NCBI GenBank assembly: GCA_000165345.1 | Contig: CM000435.1 | Span: forward strand, 1,120,001-1,184,000 | DNA: 64,000 nucleotides | Direction: 5' to 3' | Part shown: one piece after another, positions 32 through 63,636 of the stretch | How the letters are laid out: each line of letters opens with the position of its first letter | How positions within the stretch are numbered: the stretch's first letter is position 1 | Position numbers and translations under genes: made by a program | Notes under the pieces: generated by a model | Told to the model about the DNA's origin: nothing | Databases searched by the model: none | The model's input: the letters and a program-made list of their open reading frames with translations, nothing else

Positions 32-1132
32 ATGAACAATGAAAAAGACTATGAAGAATTAGTTTCAAAAAATGATTTGAATAACAAATGTTCTATTCAA
101 ATAGAGTATAATAAAGTGAAAGATCTGTTTTGTAAGAAAATGAATATGGTTCAAAATGATGGTGGATTAAATTACTTTAAATTGTTGTCAAAGCTATCAA
201 GATCAAAGGATTGTATATATCCTTTTGGATTTAAGCCTATATTGAATGAAATAGTAAATAGACACAAAGCATTGAAGTTTTTAGTAAAAGACGAAATATT
301 TAAAGAACTGTATATTGAGACAATAATCTCCAGAATATATTATGAATTGGATATATTAGAAATACGAAAATTAAGATTTAAAGATTTTAAAAATACTGAT
401 TTGGTAGATATATTAATAAATATGAAAGGTAATGAATCATTTGATGATTTAATAAATTACTTTAATTACCAACACTTTTATGTTTTGTATAGCCGTTTTG
501 TTGAGTTAGATAGTGATGAAGATCGTTATTTAACATTGGATGATTTTAAGAAGCATGATTCTGGATCATTAACTATGAACGCCTTGACAAGAATATGGGA
601 ATGTAATATATGTGAGAAAAAAGAGTTATTTGAGGATGAATTGAACAGAAATAGAAGGATGAGCTATCATGATTTTATTTATTTTTACATTAGTGATGAA
701 GATAAGACGACAGAAAGAAGTATTAGGTATTGGTTTGAGATTATTGACTTTGATTGTGACGGATGGATAAGTTTTAGTGAGATTGACTATTTTTTTAGAG
801 AACAGAAGAGCAGATGTAACGATTTAAATTATTTTATTCCAGAATTGAATAATATTTCTTGCATGATGAACGATTTACTTATGCCAGGAATACAAGGAAG
901 ATACAGGTTGGATGATTTTCTTAGAAATAAATTAATTGCTGGCCATTTTTTCAATGTTTTAGTTAATACAAAAAAGTGTCTAACTTCAATGTTTATGGAT
1001 GCAGAATTAAATTCAATACAAGCAGTGATTCTTCCTAAATTAGGTTATAAATCTCCTTCTCCATGGGAGTTACATTGCCAATATCAATATCAGATTATCC
1101 AAGACTCAAGAAACGATCAAAATATAGAATAA
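32..1132 (+). CDS. Protein phosphatase 2A regulatory subunit B'' (PR72/PR70-like), EF-hand containing; probably 5'-partial because the frame stays open to position 2
   Basis: Translation has the B''/PR72 family block ...NYFNYQHFYVLYSRFVELDSDEDRYLTLDDF...RMSYHDFIYFYISDEDK...IRYWFEIIDFDCDGWISFSEIDYFF with a canonical EF-hand loop DFDCDGWISFSE. No in-frame stop lies between window position 2 and the ATG at 32, so the true start may be upstream of the window. Confidence 0.8.
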   Translation: MNNEKDYEELVSKNDLNNKCSIQIEYNKVKDLFCKKMNMVQNDGGLNYFKLLSKLSRSKDCIYPFGFKPILNEIVNRHKALKFLVKDEIFKELYIETIISRIYYELDILEIRKLRFKDFKNTDLVDILINMKGNESFDDLINYFNYQHFYVLYSRFVELDSDEDRYLTLDDFKKHDSGSLTMNALTRIWECNICEKKELFEDELNRNRRMSYHDFIYFYISDEDKTTERSIRYWFEIIDFDCDGWISFSEIDYFFREQKSRCNDLNYFIPELNNISCMMNDLLMPGIQGRYRLDDFLRNKLIAGHFFNVLVNTKKCLTSMFMDAELNSIQAVILPKLGYKSPSPWELHCQYQYQIIQDSRNDQNIE

Positions 1133-1416
1133 CAAGAATGGAAGAAAAGTAAAGAAAACTGCAATAAATATTAGTAATACTGGCAATTTTTTTAATAATC
1201 TACTCAGATTTAGCATTTGTAGGCTCCACTTTACATGCATGCATGCAAAATAACACGTAATATCATAAGAAAATTATTAATAGGAAAAAAAGAATTATTA
1301 CTTTTAGATTGCTTTAAACACCTACTATTATAAAAATGATAATGTATATATAATTGTATCGTATTATTTCTTTCGAAAAATAATGAGTAAAATTCTTACT
1401 ATAAAGACTTATAACC

Positions 1417-1430
1417 TTTTTTTTTTTTTT
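1417..1430. repeat. T14 homopolymer followed by a CT-rich stretch
   Basis: Direct read: ttttttttttttttactcctcccctcctctgcctcttc. Confidence 0.9.
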
Positions 1431-1477
1431 ACTCCTCCCCTCCTCTGCCTCTTCATTTATTTTTTCCATTATTACTA

Positions 1478-1690
1478 TTAGTTATTCACTCTTTGTATCC
1501 AATTATTGTAAAATGGATCAAATATAAATTGATTTGAATCTAAAAATAAGTAATCTGTTATCAATACAAAAACTGCAACACCCAATCCTACTGAAGCTGC
1601 AAAAAAGTATTGGTCATATGAGATAAAAACAGCCAATAAGAGAATTAGTACTAATGACCACTCAAATCCTTGTCTAATTTTTCCTGACAT
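1478..1690 (-). CDS. Possible small two-pass membrane protein (70 aa)
   Basis: The ORF encodes two hydrophobic helices (SLVLILLLAVFISY and AASVGLGVAVFVLITDYLF). Its size and topology resemble small ER membrane subunits, but no diagnostic motif is present and it could be a chance ORF. Confidence 0.3.
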   Translation of the reverse strand: MSGKIRQGFEWSLVLILLLAVFISYDQYFFAASVGLGVAVFVLITDYLFLDSNQFIFDPFYNNWIQRVNN

Positions 1691-1920
1691 TATTTTGTTG
1701 CAAAGTTGTAATATTTATCTTGTATATATTCTTATCTATGTATGCTTGAATAAAGAATTTCTAGCCAAAAACCACTTGAATATTTCTTTTCAATACTGGC
1801 TTTATATTTTTCTTAAAGATAATATATATTATAATAGAAGAAAAAAGTTAAACTATTTATTTGGTATAAATTATTTTATTTTCGTATTTTAATATTTAAA
1901 TTTATATTTGTAAATTAAAT

Positions 1921-1938
1921 ATATATATATATATATAT
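1921..1938. repeat. (AT)9 dinucleotide microsatellite
   Basis: Direct read: atatatatatatatatat. Confidence 0.9.
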
Positions 1939-2017
1939 TGTATATATATTTTTATTGTTTATATATGTATTATATATATAAACAAAAATATAGTTGAATA
2001 TTTATTGATAAAAGTTG

Positions 2018-2030
2018 TGGCGGGAAATCC
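2018..2030 (+). promoter_or_regulatory. E2F-like site GTGGCGGGAAATCC about 450 nt upstream of 5S copy 1
   Basis: GGCGGGAAA matches the E2F/DP consensus TTTSGCGGGAAA. The same GGCGGGAAATCC core recurs at 3408-3422, with related sites at 2757-2766, 2836-2843 and 4639-4647. Confidence 0.4.
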
Positions 2031-2478
2031 GAGCCATTTGTTTTAATAACCAAATTACGTAATTTGTGTAAAAAAAAAAGAAAAATAAGGAAAAAGCAAT
2101 TAAAAATTTGAAAATATTGGAATAAACAATTGAATATTATATGAAAATTTGACTTGAGCTGTATTTTCCTGTATTTATTTTTAAAATTTAAAATTTTCTT
2201 TCAAATGTTATTTAAAAATTTAGTATTTCTAATTAAATTTACTTACATGTAAATACTGAATTCTGGTATTAAATTATATAAATCTATTAATGTATTTTCC
2301 AGTTTATACAATAAATCCATTTAGTTTATACCTAATTAATAAAAACTATGTCATTAATGATATAGTTTGGAGAAACTAAATATTATTTTATTTATTTGTT
2401 TTTTTTTAATGTTAAATATAATTTTAATGAAAAAAAATTATAAAATAGATATGATAATGTAATTTGTAGTTACCATCA

Positions 2479-2598
2479 GCAATCGGCCATACTACATCGA
2501 ATATACCGGATCCCATCAGAACTCCGAAGTCAAGCGGTGTAAGGTTCGGTTAGTACTAGGGTGGGGGACCACCTGGGAAGACCAGAATGTCGATCGCC
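2479..2598 (+). rRNA. 5S ribosomal RNA gene, copy 1 of 3
   Basis: A 120-nt element carries the 5S hallmarks GGCCATAC...GATCCCATCAGAACTCCGAAGTCAAGCGGTGTAAGGTTCGGTTAGTACTAGGGTGGGGGACCACCTGGGAAGACC. The 5' GCAATCGGC pairs with the 3' GTCGATCGC as helix I (8 of 9 pairs), and a T5 Pol III terminator follows. Confidence 0.92.
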
Positions 2599-3149
2599 TC
2601 CTTTTTAAAATTTTGTTAATAACTAATATTTAATCTTAATTAAAAGAACTTATTGTTTGATTGGCAAAATGAATTATTTCAATAAGTTATATTTACAATT
2701 TCATCGTTTTATTTTTGTTTAGTTTTTTAGATTAAATTCCATTTTAAATATATAAAGTGGCGGGCTAAATAAAACCGTTATCCATTTTTATTTACAATTG
2801 ATTCATGAAAAAAATATTTTAATAATTTTAAAAAGGCGGGAAGTTTGCATTGGGAGTATTTTAAACTAGAAACCAATTTTACATGTAAGAATATTTATAT
2901 ATAAGGAAAAAGCGTACTAAAAGCAACTTTTACTTTTAAATAAATAGTAGGCTTAAATAATTGAAAATAACAGCAAATTGATTTAAAAGTTATTTAAACA
3001 TACTTCAATCATTCTCTACTCTTTAGTTTTTTTTTTTAACAACCAATATTAAGTATCTAGGATCCCTAATATTAATATTTTTGATATATTTAATTAATAA
3101 AAAAAAAATGAAAAAATTAATATAGTAATGCAATTTGTAGTTACCACCA

Positions 3150-3269
3150 GCAATCGGCCATACTACATCGAATATACCGGATCCCATCAGAACTCCGAAG
3201 TCAAGCGGTGTAAGGTTCGGTTAGTACTAGGGTGGGGGACCACCTGGGAAGACCAGAATGTCGATCGCC
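3150..3269 (+). rRNA. 5S ribosomal RNA gene, copy 2 of 3
   Basis: Near-identical 120-nt copy in the same orientation, followed by TTTTT. The listed ORF 3128-3340 is an artefact of this RNA gene. Confidence 0.92.
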
Positions 3270-3407
3270 TCCTTTTTAAAATTTTTTTTCTTTTGAATAA
3301 CAATTCTTTTTATTTAACAAAGATGAGATACAATTCTTAATTGATAATAGTAATTTTTATTTAGTAATGATGAATACTTTTTAAATAATTATCTTTTAAT
3401 AAATTAG

Positions 3408-3422
3408 TTGGCGGGGAAATCC
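3408..3422 (+). promoter_or_regulatory. E2F-like site TTGGCGGGGAAATCC in the 5S spacer
   Basis: Direct read. It has the same GGCGGGAAATCC core as the site at 2018. Confidence 0.4.
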
Positions 3423-4060
3423 TTCAATTTCTTCTAATTATACAATAATAATATTTTCCCAAATATAAGAAGGAAAGGGAGGGGGTTGAAAGAAATTTGA
3501 ATTTTAGCAATATTTAAAATTTGCATGCACGTATATTTGCGAGTTATATTTATTATCAAAAAAATATTTTTTTTTTTCGTTATGGAAAGTGCTACCAGAT
3601 TGGTCTTACTCCATGAAACTCTAAAGTAATATAATTTGTTTGTAAGTTTCTCAATTTACAAAACAAAAATATCTATATTTAAAAAAAAGTTATTATTTTT
3701 AACCTAATCATTTTTTTTTAAAACTCGTACTAATCTATATTTTAATTCAAATGTATTACAAAAAGTCAAATGCGCGCCATTTGTGTGCATTAAATATTTA
3801 TTTATTAAAATAAAAGTGATCAAATAACATAATTGTCTGTAAATAGTAAAATTGTTAGTAGATACACAATACAAGCTTAAAATTTTTAATTATTTTAATA
3901 CTATTTTTATCTTTTAATTATTATTTTTATATAGTATTACGTTATTACTAATAGTTACCAATAAATAGTTTGTTTATACAATAGTCAACTGCTTATTTCA
4001 ACAATATAATACAAAAGAATAAAAACATTGATATGATAATGTAATTTGTAGTTGCCATCA

Positions 4061-4180
4061 GCAATCGGCCATACTACATCGAATATACCGGATCCCATCA
4101 GAACTCCGAAGTCAAGCGGTGTAAGGTTCGGTTAGTACTAGGGTGGGGGACCACCTGGGAAGACCAGAATGTCGATCGCC
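4061..4180 (+). rRNA. 5S ribosomal RNA gene, copy 3 of 3
   Basis: Near-identical 120-nt copy followed by CTTTTT. The three copies share a conserved roughly 30-nt 5' flank (ATGATAATGTAATTTGTAGTTRCCAYCAGC) but otherwise have unrelated spacers of 551 and 791 nt. Confidence 0.92.
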
Positions 4181-4713
4181 TCCCTTTTTAATTTCTTATT
4201 TTTTGATACATTAATTTATTCTGGATGATAAAAACCCTCAAATACAATCTTTATTTTTTCTAGAAAGCTTGGAAAGACAAATGTTGGCAAATACCTAACC
4301 TTGTAGATATACTGAATGTTATTCTTATTACTATTTTTTCTATATATTTATCTATTTATTTGATTTCTTTCCCCCACCCCCCTTTCATCCATCTAATTTC
4401 CATTTTTCTATATATTTCTATTCCTAATTTTATTTTTAACCTACTTGTTCATTTCCAACTTTCCTAATTTCTTTTACAAATAAAATAATTATATGTATAA
4501 AATGATAAAACAACAAAATTGTTCTTGTAAAATTTCTTAAAATTAGTCATTTTTTACCCCTCAAAAAAAAAAATACTTTAATGTTTTATTATATTCTGAT
4601 TTAGTAAAATTAAACCATAATTTACATGTGGGGTGCATGGCGGGAAAGTTTAGGAAGTATAATTATATAGATTAATTTAGGGAGCATAAAAATATAAGAA
4701 ATAAAACAAATAC

Positions 4714-4754
4714 AAAATAAATAAATAAATAAATAAATAAATATATATATATAA
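4714..4754. repeat. (AAAT)n followed by (AT)n microsatellite
   Basis: Direct read: aaataaataaataaataaataaatatatatatata. Confidence 0.9.
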
Positions 4755-4879
4755 TAGTGAAAGAGCTGTTGATTACAGCAACCATTGAGAGAGAAAGTTC
4801 TTGTCAAGTAAACTTTAAAATCTTCATGCTTTTATTATTGGTTGTTGAAAAGAAATTGGAAACTTCTCGACTTTAAGTT

Positions 4880-7800
4880 ATGCAGGTAGGATCTTTGGGA
4901 AAAGATGATAGGTCATTATCATTCAAGGAAGTTTATGGAGAGAAGTTAGGATTATTCCTTGAAGCAAAGGAAACTTGTTATAAATCTTGGAACCGATCAG
5001 ATTCTCCAGAAAAATTTTGGAAACTATTACAAGAGGAAAAAGAAAACTATCTAAGCTTATTAGTCTCAACTGGATTAAGATTTTCTGAAGAAGTTCAAAA
5101 TGAAGTAGATTGGAAAAATATGTTGGATTTACTTGAAAAAAGTGAATTATCTTTTGAATATCCATTTTCTCTCCCATTTAAATCAACCTATGAATCTAAT
5201 TTTGACTCCTCAACTTCTAATACTACTCCATTAATATGTAACCAATTCTCACCAAAATGGGGTATTCATGCAGGAAAAAGTGCTAAAACTAAAATTGATC
5301 CAAGAAGAGTTAGTGAAAAGTCTTCAAAGAAAGTCCCTTTTGAAATGGATGAAAGACAATGGAAATTTGCTGGATATGAAGTTGTTCTATTATCTATTGA
5401 CTTTATAAGACGTAATATTGGAGAATTAAAATTACAAATTACTAGATTAGAAGAAAGTAAGATGAAGATCGATCGTTTAGAAGAACAATATAAAGCAACC
5501 ACTGGAGGAAATAGAATTAGTGGATCAGGAATACAAACCAAATCTTCTAATATACCAGAAGAAAAAAATCAACATTATAATTTCTCCAAAATATGTACGG
5601 AACAAGGTATAGCTTATGAAAAATTACAAAGTCTTCATTCTAAACTTACTAGAGATTGTGATAATTTAATCTCCATCTACAAATCATTAATGATGTTTTC
5701 TGAAATGGTTAGAATCAAATTTGCTATTGATTCTTCCACTGAATATATTATTTGTTCATTATTAAGTAAATTTGATTCTGGTGGAATGGGTTTCTTTACT
5801 TCTCAAGATATACATCCTCTTGAAACTAGATATAGAGTACTATTATTATTAGAAAGTTGGTCAAAGTCTGATTTACTTACTTGTAATTATTCTACATGGG
5901 ATCATGGAAAAATGAGAATTAAACCAGGAGGAGCTCCAAGAATTATACCTGAAATTACTCATTCTAAAGTACTTAAAGATGAACCAGAATTCAGATCATG
6001 GATTCATAGACAATTACATATTATATATTCTAATCTAGCATTTAAACTTCAAAGACTTGTATTATTTATACCTCCTGGTTGGCTTCAATATCTTCCAGGA
6101 GAAATTGATCTCAGAGATATGTTAGATCTAAGAAATAAATCTTGGTCATATAGTAGTCGAAATATTGGATTAGGTATTCAAAAAGAGCTTCTATCAGAAG
6201 GAGTTCAAAAAACTCTTGGAAAAAATCCACAATATCTTTTAGAATTTACTCTTGAATCCATTACTATTCTTGATCAACTTAGAAATTTATTTGATCAAGG
6301 ATTCTGGGGTGATTCTAACTTTCTTAAAGCTCCTGAAAATCTTAATAATGGACGTGATCTTCTAAATAGACTTCTTCAACTTATGTCAGCTATGGAAAGA
6401 CTTGATTTGGCTATTAGAAGAGACATTTCAAACAATTCTTTAAAATCGGTACCTTCTACATTTCATATTAATTTATCATCTTATTGTATAGAAATGTCTT
6501 CTAATGATAAGAAATACTCATCATCATTCAATCTTGAACCTCAAAACAAACTTGATGGCCACGTTTATACTTCAAGTAATAGCCAACATATACATTCAAA
6601 CTCTAACTCATCCCATATAGAATCTAAAAAGCAATCAGGACATATCAATAGAAGACAATTAATATATACTAATGAATTTGTTAGAGACTCAATAGAAGAA
6701 AGACTTTTGGTTTTACCTAATTTAAGTTCTTATTGGATGCTTGAATCTCAGATATTACATATATTAATTAGAACTTTAATGTCTGTTAATGTCAATTCTA
6801 TTGATCCAAATTCTGGGATTAAAGGAATTGGATTAACTTCTATGGGTCTTCATCAATACTCTCCTTTTATATCCAGATGTATTGTATTTATTGGATATAT
6901 GTTAGAAAATGGAATCTATGTAGATGAAGATCTTAAATATATGGATAAAGTTACTATTACTAAGACTAATATTATACCAACTAGTTTGGATACCTATTCG
7001 TTATATTTGGCATCTTGTATATGGGTTTGTTATGAGAACTTTCTTTCTATTAAGAATTTAAAATCAGTTTCTGGATTAAATCTTGATTATGATCACGAAT
7101 CTCCAATAGGAATAGAAGGATCAGGATTATCTAAGATTAAAGATAAAGATCAAACAAGTATTCAAGAAGTATTTTTTTCTGTATTAGATCTTATTCTTAA
7201 AGATCTTCCTAGTTTTCTTAAATATCAAACTATTTCCAGCTTAGAACAAGAGCTTGCAAGTTCTACACAATCATTAACAAATGCTTACTTTACTATTTCT
7301 TCCCAACCCATTGATCAAAGATCTATCAATACTGGTACTTCTGAGACACTTGTATCTAAAGATACTACAAAGCAATCATCTGGATCTAATATTAGATCCA
7401 GATTTCACAGTAATAGTAGAGAACTTCTAAGAAAGATTACTAATAATAGCAAGGATGTAAAAGAAGGAGGATTATTAGTTGAGAAGTCGTCTTATATTGA
7501 AAATAAAGAAGATGAATTAGATGAAGACTTTACATATTTAAATAGATTCTATAAGATCAATTCATTTATTATTCAGATCCAAGGAAGAAAGACTAATAAT
7601 ATAAGTTCAAATTTAAGTTCAATAATTTGTCAACCAATTTTAAGACAAAATGATCAACTTTGGAAAAGTCCTGATTGGATGATTTGTCTTAGAGACGGTA
7701 TATCTAAAGGTATCAAGAATAAAAATAATAAAGAAGATACTTTAAATGATCAATTTTGGAGGATTTTTGGTATATCTTTAACAACAAGTTCAAGATCAGA

Positions 7801-52021: not shown

Positions 52022-52100
52022 TCATTAGCAAAAATAAAATTCTATTTTGCTTTTTTAATCCAAGTTAGAATATTTACCTTGAAGAAAAAAATACACGTTA

Positions 52101-52110
52101 GGCGCCAAAG
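52101..52110. promoter_or_regulatory. GGCGCCAAAG E2F-like box plus nearby ATACCGGTAT palindrome (52131-52142), about 300 nt upstream of RPS20
   Basis: Direct read: acacgttaggcgccaaagcttttaaaaaaataccggtatttttt. Confidence 0.4.
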
Positions 52111-52418
52111 CTTTTAAAAAAATACCGGTATTTTTTCTTAAATATTTATTAATAAAAAGGTATCGGTGAGACGGGATCATAATAATAATATTAATAAATA
52201 AATTAATAAATAATAAATAAAAATAAACTGGTAATTAAAAATTAATAAATTTCTATTATTAAAGGCCTGCCGCTGAAGAAATTCAAAGATTAATTATAAG
52301 TCTTGTTTTGGGATTAATACTACCAAAGAGTTTATTTTATAAATAGACGATATTTATATATACTCAAAGACAGGATTCGTTATTAGTAAGATAAAACAGA
52401 GAAAGGAGTCAGTCAAAA

Positions 52419-52802
52419 ATGTCAGCAGCTGTAATGAAGCCAACAGACAAACAATTTGGTCAGTTTAATGGAGAGCAACAACAGGCACCATTACACAAGA
52501 TCAGAATTACTCTCTCAAGTAAGAATTTGAAATCAATTGAGCGTGTATGTGCTGATTTGATCCAAAGTGCTAAACAAAAGGACTTAAAAGTAACTGGTCC
52601 AGTTAGAATGCCAGTTAAGACCTTGAGAATCACTACCAGAAAATCCCCATGTGGTGAGGGATCTAAGACCTGGGATAGATATGAAATGCGTATCTACAAG
52701 AGAGTTATCGACTTGTATTCATCAAGTGATGTTGTAAAGCAAATCACTTCAATTAACATTGATGCAGGAGTTGAGGTTGAGGTAACTATTTCTGACATTT
52801 AA
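52419..52802 (+). CDS. RPS20: 40S ribosomal protein S20 (uS10)
   Basis: The 127-aa protein has [99 protein letters not shown], nearly colinear with eukaryotic RPS20. Confidence 0.95.
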
Positions 52803-53537
52803 GTGAGTTTAGCCTGGAAAAGAAGGTACTATTGACTTGGAGTATAATGATTAATTTTGTAATGGTATCTCTCCTTAATTTATTAAACCAAATATCCTGA
52901 TAAGAATTTTGGTTTGTCTTTTTTTGTATCTTTTACATCAGAAGAGTAATGATATATAAATACCTTAATTTATTGGTAATATATGTTTCCCCTTCTTTTC
53001 AACAGTAACCTTACTAGAGGAAAGGAGGGTATTACTTAACTATTCTGAGCTGAAAGTCAATAAAGTTTCCAATTGAGAGATAGCTTCTTTTATTCCTAGA
53101 ATTTGGTTCTTTTACTATTATTATATTTTAGAGCTATGGATCTGAGTACTATACATTCTTGGGTTAATATATTCCGGTTATATATTTATGTATTAACTAT
53201 ACATAAGTTTAAGCAATACCAAGATGGTAGCCTTTTACGTGTTCGGATCCCAGATCTATGTATATATATATATGTAGAGAGTTAATTTCGAGTCTACACT
53301 TGCTATAATATTAGAATGATTACGATAGAGAAATACATTTCTAAGAGGTAATAATCATTAGTAAACAATATATTTGTTCTTTTTTTGATGTTTTCCTTGT
53401 TTTGTTTGTTTCTTATGTCTTTTTTTTTTTTTCTCTTTGTTAGGTATCGGATATTTCACCTTGAGTCTTGAGGCGTTTTGGAGGGAAAATCTTAAAATTC
53501 TCTTTTAATTTGTTGGGATGAAAATTCATTTTCTAGT

Positions 53538-53669
53538 ATGGAAAACTCAAACCCAATAATCTACTTTAAACCAGTAGATGAAAATAGCATAGAGGAGGTT
53601 GATGCCAATTCCCTTTTTTATTGCGAAAATAGAGAATTAAATAATACAATAAATCAAGTAACAAAAAAT
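53538..53669 (+). CDS. MIP18/FAM96 (DUF59, CIA2-like Fe-S assembly) family protein, exon 1 of 2
   Basis: An ATG at 53538 opens 44 codons (MENSNPIIYFKPVDENSIEEVDANSLFYCENRELNNTINQVTKN) ending just before a GTAAGT donor at 53670. The ORF track missed this gene because it is split. Confidence 0.75.
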
Positions 53670-53763
53670 GTAAGTACCTAGCATATAATATAGAATACGG
53701 TTCTTATTCTTAACAATTTCTATTAAACAATCATTTTTTTTTCTTTCTCATACCAATTTTTAG
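53670..53763 (+). other. Spliceosomal intron (94 nt, GTAAGT...TTTTTAG), phase 0
   Basis: The canonical GT-AG boundaries are an AT-rich 94-nt intron with a polypyrimidine tract (tttttttttctttctcataccaatttttag). Splicing joins exon 1 in frame to DVYECIKDIIDPEYPLTLEQLNVV. Confidence 0.75.
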
Positions 53764-54150
53764 GACGTTTACGAATGCATTAAAGATATTATTGACCCAG
53801 AATACCCTTTAACTCTTGAACAACTAAACGTTGTTTCCCTTGAAAACATTATAATCAACCATGAAGAACAAATCATATTCGTTTTCTTCAAGCCCACAGT
53901 AACTAGCTGCTCCCAAGCAAGCCTTATTGGACTATCGCTATACTATAAACTACACACCGTTTTTAATAAAAACTTTAAAATCATTATCAAAGTAGTTAAG
54001 GGTACACACGATCTTGAAGATTCGATCAATAAACAACTCAAAGACAAAGAGAGGGTACACGCTGCACTAGAAAATCCTCAAATATATAAAACTATCACAA
54101 AAGGACTCGCAAACTCCGATGTTTGGGAAGACCAATCTTTATTATACTAA
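53764..54150 (+). CDS. MIP18/FAM96 (DUF59, CIA2-like) family protein, exon 2 of 2 (128 codons plus stop; total protein 172 aa)
   Basis: DVYECIKDIIDPEYPLTLEQLNVVSLENIIINHEEQIIFVFFKPTVTSCSQASLIGLSLYYKLHTVFNKNFKIIIKVVKGTHDLEDSINKQLKDKERVHAALENPQIYKTITKGL aligns block-for-block with MIP18/FAM96B (DPEHPLTLEELNVV...FTPT.PHCS.ATLIGL...I.PGTH.SE.AVNKQL.DKERVAAALEN). Exon 2 has no Met, so no ORF was listed. Confidence 0.8.
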   Translation, partial: DVYECIKDIIDPEYPLTLEQLNVVSLENIIINHEEQIIFVFFKPTVTSCSQASLIGLSLYYKLHTVFNKNFKIIIKVVKGTHDLEDSINKQLKDKERVHAALENPQIYKTITKGLANSDVWEDQSLLY

Positions 54151-54175
54151 TTTAATCATTTTTTTTCTCCACATA

Positions 54176-54226
54176 AAATTCCCGCCTAGAATCGGCTTTC
54201 TTTCAAGGTATAATTCCCGCCTAAAC
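54176..54226. promoter_or_regulatory. Two direct copies of AATTCCCGCCTA (reverse-strand E2F-like GGCGGGAATT) 33 nt apart
   Basis: Direct read: aaattcccgcctagaatcggctttctttcaaggtataattcccgcctaaac. They lie in the short convergent region between the MIP18 gene 3' end and the 54438-56459 gene 3' end. Confidence 0.35.
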
Positions 54227-54437
54227 ATGCAAAATTAGAAAAATTATAAGAAAATCTAGGTAAAGCGAGGATGAGTAAGGAATTATTTATTTATTTTTTT
54301 AAAAGTTAGTTTCTCAATAAGAGTATACTATTTTAATAAGTTGTCCATTTCCTACAACATTGATTGGAGGAAGACCTTCTTTGCTTTATTAGGTTTGAGT
54401 TGATATTTTAATCAAATGATAAAGCGCGCCAGTGGGG

Positions 54438-59440: not shown

Positions 59441-61111
59441 TTATAATTCGTCATGTTTGATAGATTTTTCCACCGCTTCAATTTGCTCTTGTGTGGGGAA
59501 TTCATCACTAAACTGTTCAAAGTCTGAGAAAATCGTAACAACAAGATCAGTAGCATTTGCTGGATCTATGAATGAAATCTCATTAGAATCAATACTTGTT
59601 GAGTTCATCATGTAATCCTTAATATTTATGTAACTAATTTCTTCTGCATTAAAGTGAATGGGATTACCTGAATCCTTTCTATTAAAGAAAATTATGGATG
59701 GAATAGAACTGGAGTAGAACTCATCCTTAGGAAGGTCATTTTCACTGATATCAAAGGACCCAAACTTTATTTTTGATTCAGAATTCCCAAAAGAAATCGC
59801 ATCATGTAATTTTCTAATAATCTCTTCTGTATCTATGCAAGGTTGGCAAAATGGAGTAACTAAAACAACTAGCCAGTCATTCTTTTTATCCTCTAAAACC
59901 ATTGAATTAAAGTTACTTCCAACCAGCTTGAATACTGTGTCATTATCATAATAGACAGGTATTGGCTCAGATCTTAATTTTGGCTCAACCTTATTTAATT
60001 CAATATCTTGAAGAAATTTCTTTATTGTTAAATACTCTATTGGAGTATTTGGTGGTAACAGATAAGGTCTAGATTTAGCTACAGCTACTGTTGGAAGCAT
60101 CTCAGGTTCTACTAACAAAACTGTATTTAAATGAGAAGAATGTTCTGAGGTATCTAACCATACTACTCTGTAGTTATCTGCGAATTCTTGTGAAATTTGA
60201 GTAAATAATGCAACATATGGTTTAATACTTTCTTCTCCTTTACCAGGTTCCATTGGAACAAGAAGCCAAATTAAATCATATTCTACCTCTGAATATTTTA
60301 CATAATTTCTAGATGAAATCTCACCAAATAATGGAATCTGATTAGCTTTCACAAAATCCCAAACTTCTTTTCTTTGTTTAGAAGAACCATGGAAAGGTAT
60401 TGCATTTTCATATCTCCTTAAGCAAACAATCCAAGGATCAAAACTGTTTTTCTTTAAATCATTTTTTATTGAATCTAACTCTATTCCAGATTGAAAGACA
60501 TTGATAAAGCTTTCTTTAGATAAACCAAATCCTAAGTCATCCTTTGATATTTGGTAGAATTTCCCAGAGGCTCTATTATAGTTTGCTACATCATTAAATA
60601 TACTTCTCTCAATTCCGTTCTTATCACCATAAAAGATATATAAAACATCATTCTTAAGTAATAAATTCTCAAGCTTTTCCTTATTAATCATATTCTTCTC
60701 TAATTCCAAAACAGGAAATGCTACTTGTTCCTTTAACCATTCTAATATTTCATTTTCTTCTCTTCCTCCATAATATTCTTCTGCTACCTTATTTCTAAAA
60801 AACTTCATTGTAGGATAATCATTTATTTGGTATTCTTCCAATATCTTTATATTCCTCTCTCCATTGATTTTTGCCACATTAACTTTAATATTTCCTATTT
60901 CTTCATTCAACTTTTCCAATCTTTCTATTATTGTCACACATGCTGCACAATCATCAGTATAAAAGATTACTAAACAATGTTCATTCTTAGTAATAAATTC
61001 TTGAAAGCTATCTTTATTTAACTCAGTTAAATTCCCACCTTTAACTATTGAGAAATATAAAAAAAATAAAACTGTTTGTAATGTTAGTAATATCCTCCAA
61101 CTTATTTTCAT
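59441..61111 (-). CDS. ER-resident thioredoxin-fold / protein disulfide-isomerase-like protein with HDEL retention signal and non-canonical CxxC motifs
   Basis: The signal peptide is MKISWRILLTLQTVLFFLYFSIVKG. Two thioredoxin-like segments carry CAAC (FYTDDCAACVTI) and CQPC (VTPFCQPCIDT) in place of the classical CGHC. The C-terminus ends in KHDEL. Confidence 0.85.
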   Translation of the reverse strand: MKISWRILLTLQTVLFFLYFSIVKGGNLTELNKDSFQEFITKNEHCLVIFYTDDCAACVTIIERLEKLNEEIGNIKVNVAKINGERNIKILEEYQINDYPTMKFFRNKVAEEYYGGREENEILEWLKEQVAFPVLELEKNMINKEKLENLLLKNDVLYIFYGDKNGIERSIFNDVANYNRASGKFYQISKDDLGFGLSKESFINVFQSGIELDSIKNDLKKNSFDPWIVCLRRYENAIPFHGSSKQRKEVWDFVKANQIPLFGEISSRNYVKYSEVEYDLIWLLVPMEPGKGEESIKPYVALFTQISQEFADNYRVVWLDTSEHSSHLNTVLLVEPEMLPTVAVAKSRPYLLPPNTPIEYLTIKKFLQDIELNKVEPKLRSEPIPVYYDNDTVFKLVGSNFNSMVLEDKKNDWLVVLVTPFCQPCIDTEEIIRKLHDAISFGNSESKIKFGSFDISENDLPKDEFYSSSIPSIIFFNRKDSGNPIHFNAEEISYINIKDYMMNSTSIDSNEISFIDPANATDLVVTIFSDFEQFSDEFPTQEQIEAVEKSIKHDEL

Positions 61112-61455: not shown

Positions 61456-62499
61456 TAAACTTGAGTAAGAACAACTAAATAAAATTTAAATGATAATAAA
61501 GGTAAAATTGAGAATAAAAAAAAACGGATAAAAAAAAATGAGCGAAATTAGAGTAGTCTGAATTGAGTTCGTTAATACATGATCCAACGTCTCGAGAATT
61601 GGACTTAATTAGATACAAAAATGATCCGAAAATACATTTTCGTTCCACGTGCCGGCCAACCATTTTCAAGTTGAAATAAAAAATTTCAACGAATTTCTGT
61701 TAGGTGGCGTTAGTTATCTCAACTAATACTTCTAAGAATACATTCAAAAGAATGTAGAGGCATCTCAGACCTTCCCATCCATTTATGAAAAATGTAGTTA
61801 AGTAATATTTCATATAAATAAAATATTAGCAAAACCCACTTTATTGTCTATGGAGAATCTCGAGCTTGATCTCGCCCATAGCCACTTTTTTTAAATAAAA
61901 AAAAACTCAAGTTACGAATAGTATAATATATAGTTAAATTCCATGTAAATTTAAATTTAGAAATATCAATCAAAAGCTTTATCTCGATTTTGTTACTATA
62001 TATATATATAAGCAAAAGCCGTTTGTCTGTCCCTTTTGAAGAATAAAAAGATCTATTTAAAGTTAAACATCTTCTCAAAAAGTGTTTTAAATTAGTTGAT
62101 ATAGTACTCTTTTTCTCTATCAATTGAAATAAATATAGCTCCATTGGAATATATTGAATTCCTCTAAATTAAATGTAGGTATATAATATTATTATACCAA
62201 GTATGTAGAACCCTGTGATTGACATAAACTCTACGGTAATAAAAGAGCAATGGCACCCGAGATTCGTTACTTTTCGATGAAGTTTGATCCAATAAAATAG
62301 TAAAAATATCCCAAATATTGGTCTTCGGTATCATCGGTATATCTTGAAGATATAGAGTAAACCATTGTATATATCTAAATAATAGAGGAATTTACGTTAT
62401 ATTATAAGTATCAATTAAACAGTATGATCCAATTTTCTTCTTTTATATGAATATTAAGTTATCTTGATTAATAATATTTCATCATCTGATATCCAATAC

Positions 62500-62523: not shown

Positions 62524-63636
62524 GATATTAATGTTTATACAAGTGGATTAAAAAAAAACTTTAAATATCCAAAATGAAAGAATCCAATTTAATAGCAAAT
62601 GCAAATACACGTTATATATGATTAGTATTAATCCAAGTATAAAGAAAATCGTCAGGTTTGCAGACATAGAGTTTCTCCACATAGATAGATTCAGTGGATT
62701 GACAGATTATTTTGCACGCTTAACTACTTAAAAAGTAGAAGATCATCATTCATTTCCAATATACCATCAATAAATATACAAATCCATATAACGTGGAATA
62801 AATGCTATAAAATGGAGTAATTAACATAGAAATAATGCTCAGTACCGCTTTGAAAATAGTAACTCTTAAGAGACCAATTTCCAAAACGATAAAAAACTCT
62901 TTTTCTACACTAAGTTTCAGTGGAAGGAGAAGAATAGAGTTGGTTAATCTTCATTGCAATATTCCAATTATACCAGATGAATAACTATGTATTTACGTAT
63001 ATTTTTAAAGTTCTTTTCCATTTAATTGCGACAAATAATATAACGTATTTAAATATATCCATTTATAAAAGGCTTAAAATATTCCCATATTTCAATACTT
63101 AATAGAGAAAAGAAGAATACCAATAACTAAAAATATCCGACTTACCTCGTATTCATAAGATATCTTTCAAACTATATGTAACAATTATTGATGGGATGAA
63201 TAAAGTAATATGTCTTATAGTTTAACAGATTTTAAGGTCTCAATTCTTTCCATGACCTCCCTTGTAATAGATGAATTCTTTTTTCTTCTTCTGCAAATAA
63301 TAGAAAGAAAACCGTTTAAAAGTCGTTCCCTCAGAGTTAAAAAGCTCGATATTATTTAATATTCTCGTCATAATAATCTGAATTGGATTTCAAAATCATC
63401 ATTGGGATAAATATTAAAGATTTAACTTTTTCTTTATATACGAATTCTTATTCACTTAGTCTATATATAAGGAGTTTCCATTTTGTATCCCATTGTAGAT
63501 TACTGAAATAAAATCCACTAATACAAAACTGAGATACAAAATGTAAAAACTGAAAATCTTTGTCCGTTTTTTCCTCAAATTCCTCAAATCTCTTAATTGA
63601 TTATTTCATTTATTTGATTATTATTTACTATTTCTC

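What the first reader, a model, noticed from the sequence alone, without database searches (positions are those of the whole stretch)
2440..4200. Three tandem 5S rRNA genes embedded in non-homogenised spacers
Three near-identical 120-nt 5S rRNA genes sit head-to-tail at 2479, 3150 and 4061. Their spacers, 551 and 791 nt long, share essentially no sequence with each other. The shared elements are a roughly 30-nt AT-rich 5' flank (ATGATAATGTAATTTGTAGTTRCCAYCAGC), a T5 terminator and scattered GGCGGGAAATCC boxes. Typical eukaryotic 5S arrays are long, homogenised unit repeats. A three-copy dispersed-spacer cluster is reminiscent of the three tandem 5S genes reported in Cryptosporidium parvum and is a useful taxonomic anchor. 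The conserved 5' flank is a candidate upstream Pol III promoter element (TATA-like at about -25), as required in some protists and fungi. The spacer E2F-like boxes are unexpected next to Pol III genes.
Basis: partly seen in the sequence, partly recalled or inferred. Interest (0 to 1): 0.6.

Follow-up and report, generated by a model that had tools for sequence, protein, structure and literature searches.

The report
Cryptosporidium parvum three-gene 5S rRNA cluster
The window holds the already described cluster of three identical 5S ribosomal RNA genes of the parasite Cryptosporidium parvum, an ordinary housekeeping locus whose only mildly new feature is that each spacer keeps a conserved E2F-type promoter box.

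Summary
Rfam finds three full-length 5S rRNA genes at 2479-2598, 3150-3269 and 4061-4180 (+ strand, 102.5 bits each). They are 100% identical and separated by spacers of 551 and 791 nt. The spacers resemble each other only at their ends.

The window is Cryptosporidium parvum: the neighbouring protein is 100% identical to XP_628641.1. It is probably the chromosome 7 cluster. The locus has been known since 1994 (Taghi-Kilani et al., Gene 142:253). A second three-gene cluster is reported on chromosome 3.

Comparison with eight other Cryptosporidium assemblies shows three things:
- The cluster is syntenic across the genus, with 1-3 copies assembled.
- Genes plus about 35-50 nt of upstream flank evolve in concert, while the spacers drift.

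An A-rich tract (-48 to -33), a TATA-like TATGATAAT (-29 to -21), CA at -2/-1 and a T5 run fit a Pol III unit with an upstream element. This is untested.

The E2F-like boxes are the commonest C. parvum intergenic motif, so they are not exotic. Even so, every 5S-5S spacer keeps one 141-248 nt after the preceding gene, including in species whose spacers no longer align. Their role is unknown.

Verdict: already known, low interest.

The parts
2479..2598 (+). 5S rRNA gene, copy 1
   Evidence: Rfam RF00001, 102.5 bits, E=2.6e-21, model positions 1-120. Identical to copies 2 and 3.
3150..3269 (+). 5S rRNA gene, copy 2
   Evidence: Rfam RF00001, 102.5 bits.
4061..4180 (+). 5S rRNA gene, copy 3
   Evidence: Rfam RF00001, 102.5 bits.
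2431..2478 (+). Upstream flank of copy 1: A-rich tract (-48 to -33), TATA-like TATGATAAT at 2450-2458 (-29 to -21) and CA at -2/-1. Candidate Pol III upstream element and part of the homogenised tract.
3102..3149 (+). Upstream flank of copy 2: TATAGTAAT at 3121-3129 and CA at -2/-1.
4013..4060 (+). Upstream flank of copy 3: TATGATAAT at 4032-4040 and CA at -2/-1.
2599..2606 (+). TCC + T5 run after copy 1. Pol III terminator (inferred).
   Evidence: Sequence. A T4-T7 run follows all 20 copies compared across species.
3270..3277 (+). TCC + T5 run after copy 2.
4181..4189 (+). TCCC + T5 run after copy 3.
2599..3149 (.). Spacer 1 (551 nt, 20% GC). It is unique sequence, orthologous to spacer 1 of C. 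hominis, C. meleagridis and chipmunk genotype I. No ORF of 60 aa or more lies within it (the 70-aa ORF at 3128-3340 and the 54-aa ORF at 3023-3187 run into 5S copy 2), and there is no Rfam hit.
3270..4060 (.). Spacer 2 (791 nt, 21% GC). It is unique sequence, orthologous to spacer 2 of C. hominis and C. meleagridis.
2759..2764 (+). E2F-like core GGCGGG, 161 nt after copy 1.
   Evidence: Kept in C. hominis and C. meleagridis; C. canis has a core at +157.
2835..2853 (+). E2F-like box plus TGCAT: GGCGGGAAGTTTGCATTGG, 237 nt after copy 1.
   Evidence: The same composite is kept in C. meleagridis, chipmunk genotype I and C. canis (GGCGGGAAATGTTGCATG).
3410..3422 (+). E2F-like box GGCGGGGAAATCC, 141 nt after copy 2.
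   Evidence: C. canis has one at +144.
3771..3779 (.). Palindromic E2F-like box TGCGCGCCA, 504 nt after copy 2 and 288 nt before copy 3.
   Evidence: Identical in C. hominis and C. meleagridis.
2019..2030 (+). E2F-like box GGCGGGAAATCC, 460 nt before copy 1 and 329 nt upstream of the ATG of the minus-strand 70-aa ORF. Probably that gene's promoter, or possibly the box of the first 5S unit.
   Evidence: Kept in all species except the bovis/ryanae clade.
4625..4647 (+). Composite promoter TGTGGGG-TGCATG-GGCGGGAAA, 241 nt before the ATG of the 2151-aa ORF. It marks the downstream border of the cluster and is not part of the 5S units.

Best explanation
This is one of the two 5S rRNA gene clusters of Cryptosporidium parvum, probably the chromosome 7 one. 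It consists of three head-to-tail, sequence-identical 120-nt genes.

Each gene is an independent RNA polymerase III unit. It uses the internal control region within the gene. It is probably helped by an upstream A-rich tract and a TATA-like element at about -29 to -21 (inferred). It ends at a T5 run 3-4 nt after the gene (inferred from established Pol III biology).

The triplication predates the split of C. parvum, C. hominis and C. meleagridis, and probably that of C. canis. Since then the genes and about 35-50 nt of 5' flank plus 10-20 nt of 3' flank have been kept alike. Purifying selection and short-tract gene conversion (concerted evolution) account for this. The spacers have diverged as ordinary single-copy intergenic DNA, which is why they are not homogenised.

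Each spacer retains one or two E2F-type boxes, one of them paired with TGCAT. These are most likely Pol II-type regulatory modules under selection. Whether they drive unannotated transcripts or keep chromatin open around the 5S genes is not known.
For: Identity
- Three RF00001 hits of 102.5 bits.
- 95% of pair cells are canonical on the Rfam structure across 8 distinct Cryptosporidium 5S sequences. The structure beats all slid registers (95% against 22-47%). There is one double compensatory pair (17:61, U-A to C-G) and several one-step changes that keep pairing.

Organism
- The flanking PP2A-B'' ORF is 100% identical to C. parvum XP_628641.1 / CPATCC_003718.
- The window differs at 5 of 11,132 nt from CP029786.1.

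Known locus
- Taghi-Kilani et al. 1994 (reference quoted in PMC7708651).
- Six 5S genes in two clusters of three, on chromosomes 3 and 7 (PMC10888889).

Synteny
- The order PP2A-B'' gene, 70-aa ORF, 5S cluster, ~2000-aa gene holds in the eight assemblies whose contig spans the region, with 1-3 assembled 5S copies. The C. ubiquitum (L008) and L016 contigs end just after the PP2A-B'' gene.

Old duplication with orthologous spacers
- The whole intergenic region aligns colinearly at 93.5% (C. hominis) and 79.7% (C. meleagridis), with the 5S genes at 100%.
- Chipmunk genotype I spacer 1 matches C. parvum spacer 1 at 67% over 300 nt.

Concerted evolution
- Species-specific substitutions in the gene are shared by all paralogues of a species.
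- The C. meleagridis upstream flanks match each other at 33-37 of 40 nt, but match C. parvum orthologues at only 28-31 of 40.

Upstream element
- The consensus of 20 copies is A-rich from -48 to -33, then ATATGATAAT from -30 to -21, then CA at -2/-1.
- In C. canis (45% GC) positions -45 to -33 are still 95% A/T.

Boxes
- All six 5S-5S spacers examined have an E2F-like core at +141 to +248.
- The probability of this in shuffles is 0.002-0.11 per spacer.
Against: - No expression, 5'-end or chromatin data were available here. The promoter and terminator roles rest on sequence and on general Pol III knowledge.
- The minimum-free-energy fold of a single copy is not better than shuffles (z = -0.85). 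This is common for 5S and does not weigh against the covariance-model match.
- Between C. parvum and C. meleagridis the upstream flanks are no better conserved (75-82%) than the spacers on average. C. hominis copy 3 differs from C. parvum copy 3 at 10 of 40 flank positions. Most of the 30-nt flank is therefore not tightly constrained.
- The bovis/ryanae-clade loci have 5S genes but no E2F-like box nearby. The boxes are therefore not universally needed for 5S expression.
- Copy numbers of 1-2 in some draft assemblies may be assembly compressions (PMC10888889).
Confidence: 0.95

Rival explanations
1. The shared ~30-nt upstream flank has no promoter role. It is alike among the copies only because gene-conversion tracts that homogenise the 5S genes spill over into it.
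For: - Paralogues cluster by species in the flank: C. meleagridis copies match at 33-37 of 40 nt among themselves against 28-31 of 40 to C. parvum.
- Between species the flank is no more conserved than the spacer average.
- C. hominis copy 3 differs at 10 of 40 positions from C. parvum copy 3.
Against: - A/T-only blocks at -48 to -33, TATGATA at -29 to -23 and CA at -2/-1 recur in lineages whose flanks are otherwise unalignable.
- This includes C. canis, where the surrounding DNA is 45% GC but -45 to -33 is 95% A/T.
- From my own knowledge, upstream TATA-like elements are required for 5S transcription in several fungi, plants and insects.
Confidence: 0.3
2. The E2F-like boxes in the spacers are promoters of unannotated Pol II transcripts (short non-coding RNAs) that lie between the 5S genes. 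They have nothing to do with 5S expression.
For: - E2F-like motifs mark nearly every Pol II promoter and open-chromatin peak in C. parvum (PMC3734150; bioRxiv 10.1101/2025.01.17.633476). They also lie upstream of many lncRNAs (PMC7840661).
- Of 22 cores in the window, 21 are intergenic, typically 200-300 nt before an ATG.
- The spacer 1 box is a typical E2F + TGCAT composite, conserved as far as C. canis.
Against: - No ORF of 60 aa or more and no Rfam family lies within the spacers.
- Apart from the boxes, the spacers show no strongly conserved block between C. parvum and C. meleagridis.
- Six spacer and 5S 12-mers are absent from the poly(A)+ lncRNA catalogue of PMC7840661, while a positive control was found. 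The stored file is truncated, so this is weak evidence.
Confidence: 0.4
3. The E2F-like boxes act on the 5S genes themselves. Bound E2F/DP keeps a nucleosome-free boundary about one nucleosome length downstream of each gene, or enhances Pol III loading on the next gene.
For: - The first box lies at a constant distance after the preceding 5S gene (+141 to +172 in 9 of 10 spacers). This holds across species whose spacers no longer align.
- There is one box-bearing region before each of the three genes, including the first (-460, -391/-315, -651/-288).
- GGCGGG boxes also lie 57-71 nt upstream of a tRNA gene in L001, and are kept in three other species.
Against: - The bovis/ryanae-clade loci have 5S genes without such boxes.
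- There is no box at +150 after the last copy.
- The distance to the next gene's start is variable (288-651 nt).
- No precedent was tested here.
Confidence: 0.2
4. The cluster is an assembly artefact or a set of pseudogenes.
For: Short-read assemblies of relatives show 1-2 copies. Compression at 5S regions has been reported (PMC10888889).
Against: - Three copies with the same unique spacers are present in independent assemblies of C. parvum, C. hominis, C. meleagridis and C. canis.
- The genes are intact, identical and score far above the Rfam threshold.
Confidence: 0.01

Closest known systems
Cryptosporidium parvum 5S rRNA gene cluster (Taghi-Kilani, Remacha-Moreno and Wenman 1994, Gene 142:253-258; chromosome 3 and 7 clusters in PMC10888889)
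   Same: Same organism, with three tandemly repeated 5S genes. The genome papers report two clusters of three. The contig size (1.32 Mb) and the accession order fit chromosome 7.
   Different: Nothing is known to differ. The 1994 paper is not held in the library. I could therefore not check whether its clone is this cluster or the chromosome 3 one, nor what it says about the spacers.
Plasmodium falciparum / P. berghei 5S rRNA locus (Shippen-Lentz and Vezza 1988, cited in PMC12235521)
   Same: A single locus with three head-to-tail 5S genes in an A/T-rich apicomplexan genome, unlinked to the 18S-5.8S-28S units.
   Different: In Plasmodium the locus is flanked by other Pol III genes (tRNA-Pro and SRP RNA). 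Here the neighbours are protein-coding genes. E2F/DP factors and their boxes are absent from Plasmodium (PMC3734150).
Classical eukaryotic 5S rDNA arrays (hundreds to thousands of homogenised gene + spacer units)
   Same: The same gene, head-to-tail orientation, T-run terminators and concerted evolution of the coding part.
   Different: There are only three copies. Homogenisation stops about 50 nt upstream and about 20 nt downstream of the gene. The spacers are unique and of unequal length.
5S genes with upstream TATA-like promoter elements (fission yeast, Neurospora, Arabidopsis, insects; from my own knowledge, not checked in the library)
   Same: A TATA-like element centred near -25, and a C/A just before the start.
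   Different: Function has not been tested in Cryptosporidium. The element here is TATGATAAT rather than a canonical TATAAA, and it is preceded by a 16-nt A-rich tract.
E2F/DP promoter motifs of C. parvum (motif 4 TTTGGCGGGAAV and motif 3 DTTGSCGCCH of PMC3734150)
   Same: The same core and flanks (GGCGGGAA, TGCGCGCCA), an intergenic location, and pairing with TGCAT.
   Different: Here they lie in spacers between Pol III genes, with no annotated Pol II gene to serve.

Membership tests
5S rRNA (Rfam RF00001) | Covariance-model score above the curated gathering score over the full model | tested here: met
   102.5 bits against a gathering score of 38, model positions 1-120 of 120, for all three copies.
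5S rRNA (Rfam RF00001) | Three-way junction with helices I-V supported by pairing across relatives | tested here: met
   34 pairs, with 95.2% of cells canonical across 8 distinct Cryptosporidium sequences. Slid registers give 22-47%. Pair 17:61 changes on both sides. Covariation is thin because the sequences are 97% alike.
5S rRNA (Rfam RF00001) | Transcribed as a ~120-nt RNA and incorporated into the large ribosomal subunit | not testable with these tools
   No RNA or ribosome data were available.
Pol III type 1 gene unit | Run of four or more T shortly after the gene | tested here: met
   T5 runs at 2602-2606, 3273-3277 and 4185-4189. T4-T7 runs follow all 20 copies in 9 assemblies.
Pol III type 1 gene unit | Internal control region (box A, intermediate element, box C) bound by TFIIIA | not tested
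   The box C region (positions 80-97, AGGGTGGGGGACCACCTG) is nearly invariant across the species compared. No binding test or TFIIIA search was done.
5S genes with an upstream TATA-like promoter element | A/T-rich TATA-like element at about -30 to -20, conserved among relatives | tested here: met
   TATGATAAT or TATAGTAAT at -29 to -21 in the window. The consensus ATATGATAAT comes from 20 copies in 9 assemblies.
5S genes with an upstream TATA-like promoter element | Transcription depends on the element | not testable with these tools
   Needs mutagenesis or in vitro transcription.
Homogenised tandem 5S rDNA array | Whole repeat unit (gene + spacer) nearly identical between neighbours | tested here: not met
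   Apart from one 32-nt A/T-rich match, the spacers match only over their last 48 nt and first 19 nt. The unit of similarity is 188 nt.
C. parvum 5S cluster as published (1994) and annotated (chromosomes 3 and 7) | [quoted passage not shown] | tested here: met
C. parvum 5S cluster as published (1994) and annotated (chromosomes 3 and 7) | Sequence identity with the published clone, and chromosome assignment | not testable with these tools
   The paper and GenBank entry are not held.
E2F/DP binding site | Core GGCGGG or SGCGCS with T-rich and A-rich flanks | tested here: met
   Cores at 2759, 2835, 3410 and 3773. They match motifs 3 and 4 of PMC3734150.
E2F/DP binding site | Bound by E2F/DP in the cell | not testable with these tools
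   Needs ChIP or CUT&RUN.

The most novel reading that the evidence does not exclude
E2F-type promoter modules (one of them an E2F + TGCAT composite) have been kept by selection inside every 5S-5S spacer. They lie about one nucleosome length downstream of each 5S gene, from the C. parvum group to C. canis and a more distant species. This would mean either that a Pol II-type transcription factor takes part in organising or activating Pol III 5S genes in Cryptosporidium, or that conserved, still unannotated Pol II transcription units are interleaved with the 5S genes.
Probability: 0.3. Interest if true: 0.4.

Novelty: already known. Interest (0 to 1): 0.15.

Why it matters
- The cluster fixes the origin of the window (Cryptosporidium parvum, probably chromosome 7). 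It also gives a clean reference annotation for genes that have been mislabelled as 5.8S in some Cryptosporidium assemblies (PMC10888889).
- It is a compact example of concerted evolution limited to about 190 nt around each gene while the spacers diverge freely.
- If the conserved E2F-type boxes in the spacers prove functional, they would link the parasite's dominant Pol II regulator to a Pol III locus.
- Beyond that the locus is ordinary housekeeping DNA.

Tried and rejected
1. Hidden genes in the spacers. A permissive Rfam scan of 1100-4900 found only the three 5S genes and two sub-threshold chance hits. ARAGORN found no tRNA in the window. No ORF of 60 aa or more lies within the spacers. The 70-aa ORF at 3128-3340 and the MGSGIF... 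ORFs are artefacts of reading through 5S.

2. The bacterial promoter/terminator scan is irrelevant here and not above shuffles.

3. Single-sequence folding gave z = -0.85, which is not informative.

4. A search for spacer or 5S 12-mers in the lncRNA catalogue of PMC7840661 found none. A positive control was found, but the stored file is truncated.

5. Attempts to reach the second (chromosome 3) cluster as an independent replicate failed:
   - An exact 60-mer scan of JGI metagenomes gave 0 hits.
   - A protein search with the ORF that overlaps 5S found no candidates.

6. The 1994 paper could not be read.

7. Rejected ideas:
   - Boxes arising by chance composition.
   - Boxes enriched beyond the general intergenic density. 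There are 4 cores in 1342 nt against 1.4 per kb, which by my own Poisson estimate gives P of about 0.12, not significant.
   - Pseudogenes or an assembly artefact.
Full report
**What is in the sequence**

Rfam's 5S_rRNA model matches the window at 2479-2598, 3150-3269 and 4061-4180. All three hits are on the + strand, score 102.5 bits (gathering score 38) and cover model positions 1-120. The three 120-nt sequences are identical.

They are separated by 551 nt (2599-3149) and 791 nt (3270-4060). The repeat finder gives a 188-nt family (2430-2617, 3101-3288, 4012-4199; 93-95% identity) and nothing else shared.

Sensitive blastn between the two spacers finds their last 48 nt (81%) and their first 19 nt (95%). 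The only other match is a 32-nt A/T-rich stretch (81%). These two end regions are the 5' flank of the next gene and the terminator region of the previous one.

Each gene is followed by TCC(C) and a T5 run.

**Where the window comes from**

The ORF at 32-1132 is 100% identical to a C. parvum protein phosphatase 2A regulatory subunit (XP_628641.1 / EAK90460.1 / CPATCC_003718). The window differs at only 5 of 11,132 positions from a 1.32-Mb C. parvum contig, CP029786.1.

The three tandem 5S genes of C. parvum were cloned in 1994 (Taghi-Kilani, Remacha-Moreno and Wenman, Gene 142:253-258). The reference is quoted in PMC7708651, but the paper itself is not held.

A recent assembly paper states that C. 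meleagridis and C. parvum have six 5S genes in two clusters of three, on chromosomes 3 and 7. It also notes that some had been mislabelled as 5.8S (PMC10888889). Contig size and accession order suggest this window is the chromosome 7 cluster; this is an inference.

P. falciparum and P. berghei likewise have one locus with three head-to-tail 5S genes (PMC12235521).

**Comparative anatomy**

I fetched the orthologous region from these assemblies:
- C. parvum (L001), C. hominis (L014) and C. meleagridis (L013)
- chipmunk genotype I (L007), C. canis (L009) and C. ryanae (L012)
- an unnamed more distant species (L010) and two bovis-group assemblies (L011, L015)
- C. ubiquitum (L008) and an unnamed Logan contig (L016), both of which end just after the PP2A-B'' gene and so do not reach the cluster.

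Where the contig spans the region (all but L008 and L016), gene order is the same: PP2A-B'' gene, a conserved 70-aa minus-strand ORF, the 5S genes, then a ~2000-aa gene. Rfam finds the following copy numbers:

| Assembly | 5S copies |
|---|---|
| C. parvum, C. hominis, C. meleagridis, C. canis | 3 |
| L007, L010, L015 | 2 |
| L011, L012 | 1 |

The low numbers may be real or may be assembly compressions, which are reported for exactly these regions.

**Why the spacers are not homogenised**

The whole 3.7-kb intergenic region aligns colinearly between species. Identity is 93.5% to C. hominis and 79.7% to C. meleagridis, with the 5S genes at 100% and the spacers mostly at 65-90%. Chipmunk genotype I spacer 1 still matches C. 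parvum spacer 1 at 67% over 300 nt.

Each spacer therefore has its own orthologue in other species. The triplication is older than these species, and the spacers behave as single-copy intergenic DNA.

The genes themselves evolve in concert. Every substitution that separates species is shared by all paralogues of a species, with single-copy exceptions only in C. hominis copy 1, C. meleagridis copy 3 and C. canis copy 1.

The same holds for the upstream flank. The C. meleagridis copies match each other at 33-37 of 40 positions but match their C. parvum orthologues at only 28-31.

The simplest mechanism is short-tract gene conversion, roughly -50 to +140, combined with purifying selection on the RNA. 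This is inferred, not shown.

**RNA structure**

On eight distinct Cryptosporidium 5S sequences, 95.2% of pair cells of the Rfam structure are canonical, against 22-47% when partners are slid. Pair 17:61 switches between U-A and C-G. Pairs 8:112, 2:118, 25:52, 67:108 and 68:107 change by one step and stay paired.

Columns 16/62 and 80/96 also change together (A/U to G/C), although the Rfam consensus leaves them unpaired. C. parvum carries an A:C mismatch at 3:117 where more distant species have A-U. A single-sequence fold is not better than shuffles (z = -0.85), which does not matter given the model score.

**Promoter and terminator**

Anchoring 20 copies from nine assemblies at +1 gives three recurring features:
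- an A-rich tract from -48 to -33
- ATATGATAAT from -30 to -21
- CA at -2/-1.

In C. canis, whose intergenic DNA is 45% GC, -45 to -33 is still 95% A/T. TATGATA is kept in two of its three copies.

However, the flank as a whole is no better conserved between species than the spacers. C. hominis copy 3 differs at 10 of 40 positions from C. parvum copy 3. Only a few positions can be constrained, and most of the within-species identity reflects homogenisation.

Function is untested. The T4-T7 run after every copy fits Pol III termination, going by established Pol III biology.

**The E2F-like boxes**

GGCGGGAA occurs 7 times in the window against 0.16 expected. E2F-like cores (GGCGGG or SGCGCS) occur 22 times, 21 of them outside long ORFs, which is 1.4 per kb of non-coding DNA.

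This is the known situation in C. parvum. E2F-like motifs (TTTGGCGGGAAV, DTTGSCGCCH) are the most over-represented upstream motifs (PMC3734150). They also dominate open-chromatin peaks (bioRxiv 10.1101/2025.01.17.633476).

The two spacers carry four cores in 1342 nt. This is not significantly more than the intergenic average; my own Poisson estimate gives P of about 0.12.

Two boxes belong to neighbouring genes:
- The box at 2019 lies 329 nt upstream of the ATG of the conserved 70-aa minus-strand ORF.
- The box at 4639 is part of a fully conserved TGTGGGG-TGCATG-GGCGGGAAA module, 241 nt before the 2151-aa ORF.

What is not ordinary is that every 5S-5S spacer examined keeps a core 141-248 nt after the preceding gene:

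| Spacer | Core positions after the preceding gene |
|---|---|
| C. parvum | +161/+237 and +141 |
| C. hominis | +171/+247 and +156 |
| C. meleagridis | +172/+248 and +160 |
| chipmunk genotype I | +243 |
| C. canis | +157/+188 and +144/+168 |
| L010 | +153 |

The C. canis and L010 spacers no longer align with those of C. parvum. In dinucleotide shuffles the chance of a core in +130 to +260 is 0.002-0.11 per spacer.

The second box of spacer 1 is an E2F + TGCAT composite in C. parvum, C. meleagridis and C. canis.

Against a role in 5S expression, the bovis/ryanae-clade loci have no such boxes, and the motif is rare throughout those loci.

I found no ORF, Rfam family or catalogued poly(A)+ lncRNA in the spacers. 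The boxes are therefore probably functional, but their target is unknown. It could be unannotated Pol II transcripts, or chromatin organisation around the 5S genes.

**Verdict**

The finding is accurate and correctly interpreted, but the locus is already described and annotated. The comparative points are modest additions:
- an old triplication
- homogenisation confined to about 190 nt around each gene
- an A-tract plus TATA-like upstream element
- positionally conserved E2F-type boxes in the spacers.

I could not reach the chromosome 3 cluster, which would be the natural independent test.

Noticed in passing
window 61547-61806 (-): Nuclear RNase P RNA gene (Rfam RF00009, 58.1 bits, full model). 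Three GGCGCC boxes lie 151-240 nt downstream of it. They sit 196-285 nt upstream of the ATG of the next minus-strand ORF (59441-61111).
   Followed up: partly
window 63326-63407 (-): C/D-box snoRNA matching Rfam SNORD36 (43.2 bits against a gathering score of 30).
   Followed up: no
window 1478-1690 (-): A 70-aa ORF with two hydrophobic stretches. It is conserved at 70-80% nucleotide identity in every fetched Cryptosporidium locus that spans the region, and at 95-97% between C. parvum and C. meleagridis. It has a weak Pfam Ost4 (oligosaccharyltransferase subunit 4) match, E = 0.05, below the cut-off. It is probably a real small membrane-protein gene.
   Followed up: partly
window 4625-4647 (+): Composite promoter module TGTGGGG-TGCATG-GGCGGGAAA, 241 nt upstream of the 2151-aa ORF. 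It is essentially invariant in C. parvum, C. hominis, C. meleagridis, chipmunk genotype I and C. canis, and recognisable in L010.
   Followed up: partly
window 2869-3138: All five differences between the window and the C. parvum contig CP029786.1 over 11.1 kb fall in this 270-nt stretch (positions 2869, 2881, 3002, 3049, 3138). This covers spacer 1 and the upstream flank of 5S copy 2. It may be a local polymorphism hotspot, a conversion tract or an assembly difference.
   Followed up: no
L014 14287-14326 (C. hominis, upstream flank of 5S copy 3): This flank differs from its C. parvum orthologue at 10 of 40 positions, although the surrounding intergenic region is 93.5% identical. One possibility is conversion from another copy, perhaps in the chromosome 3 cluster.
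   Followed up: no
L001 6093-6166 (-) and 6223-6242 (outside the window, about 4 kb upstream of it): A tRNA gene with two GGCGGG boxes 57 and 71 nt upstream of it. Equivalent boxes are kept in C. meleagridis, C. canis and L016. This is a second case of E2F-like boxes beside a Pol III gene.
   Followed up: partly
window 52022-54437: A 2.4-kb stretch without long ORFs between two convergent genes. It carries E2F-like cores at 52101, 54181, 54216 and 54425, and may hold unannotated small genes or non-coding transcripts.
   Followed up: no
L011, L012, L015 (whole loci): The bovis/ryanae-clade loci have only 3 E2F-like cores per 21 kb, against 10-14 in the C. parvum group and L010 (21 in GC-richer C. 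canis, 12 in the 12-kb L016). None lies near their 5S genes or before the orthologue of the 2151-aa gene. The motif may be used less, or differ, in that clade.
   Followed up: partly
window 11455-31497 (-): A single 6680-aa ORF. Its orthologues carry HECT and faint ankyrin Pfam hits. It is one of the very large genes of this compact genome.
   Followed up: no
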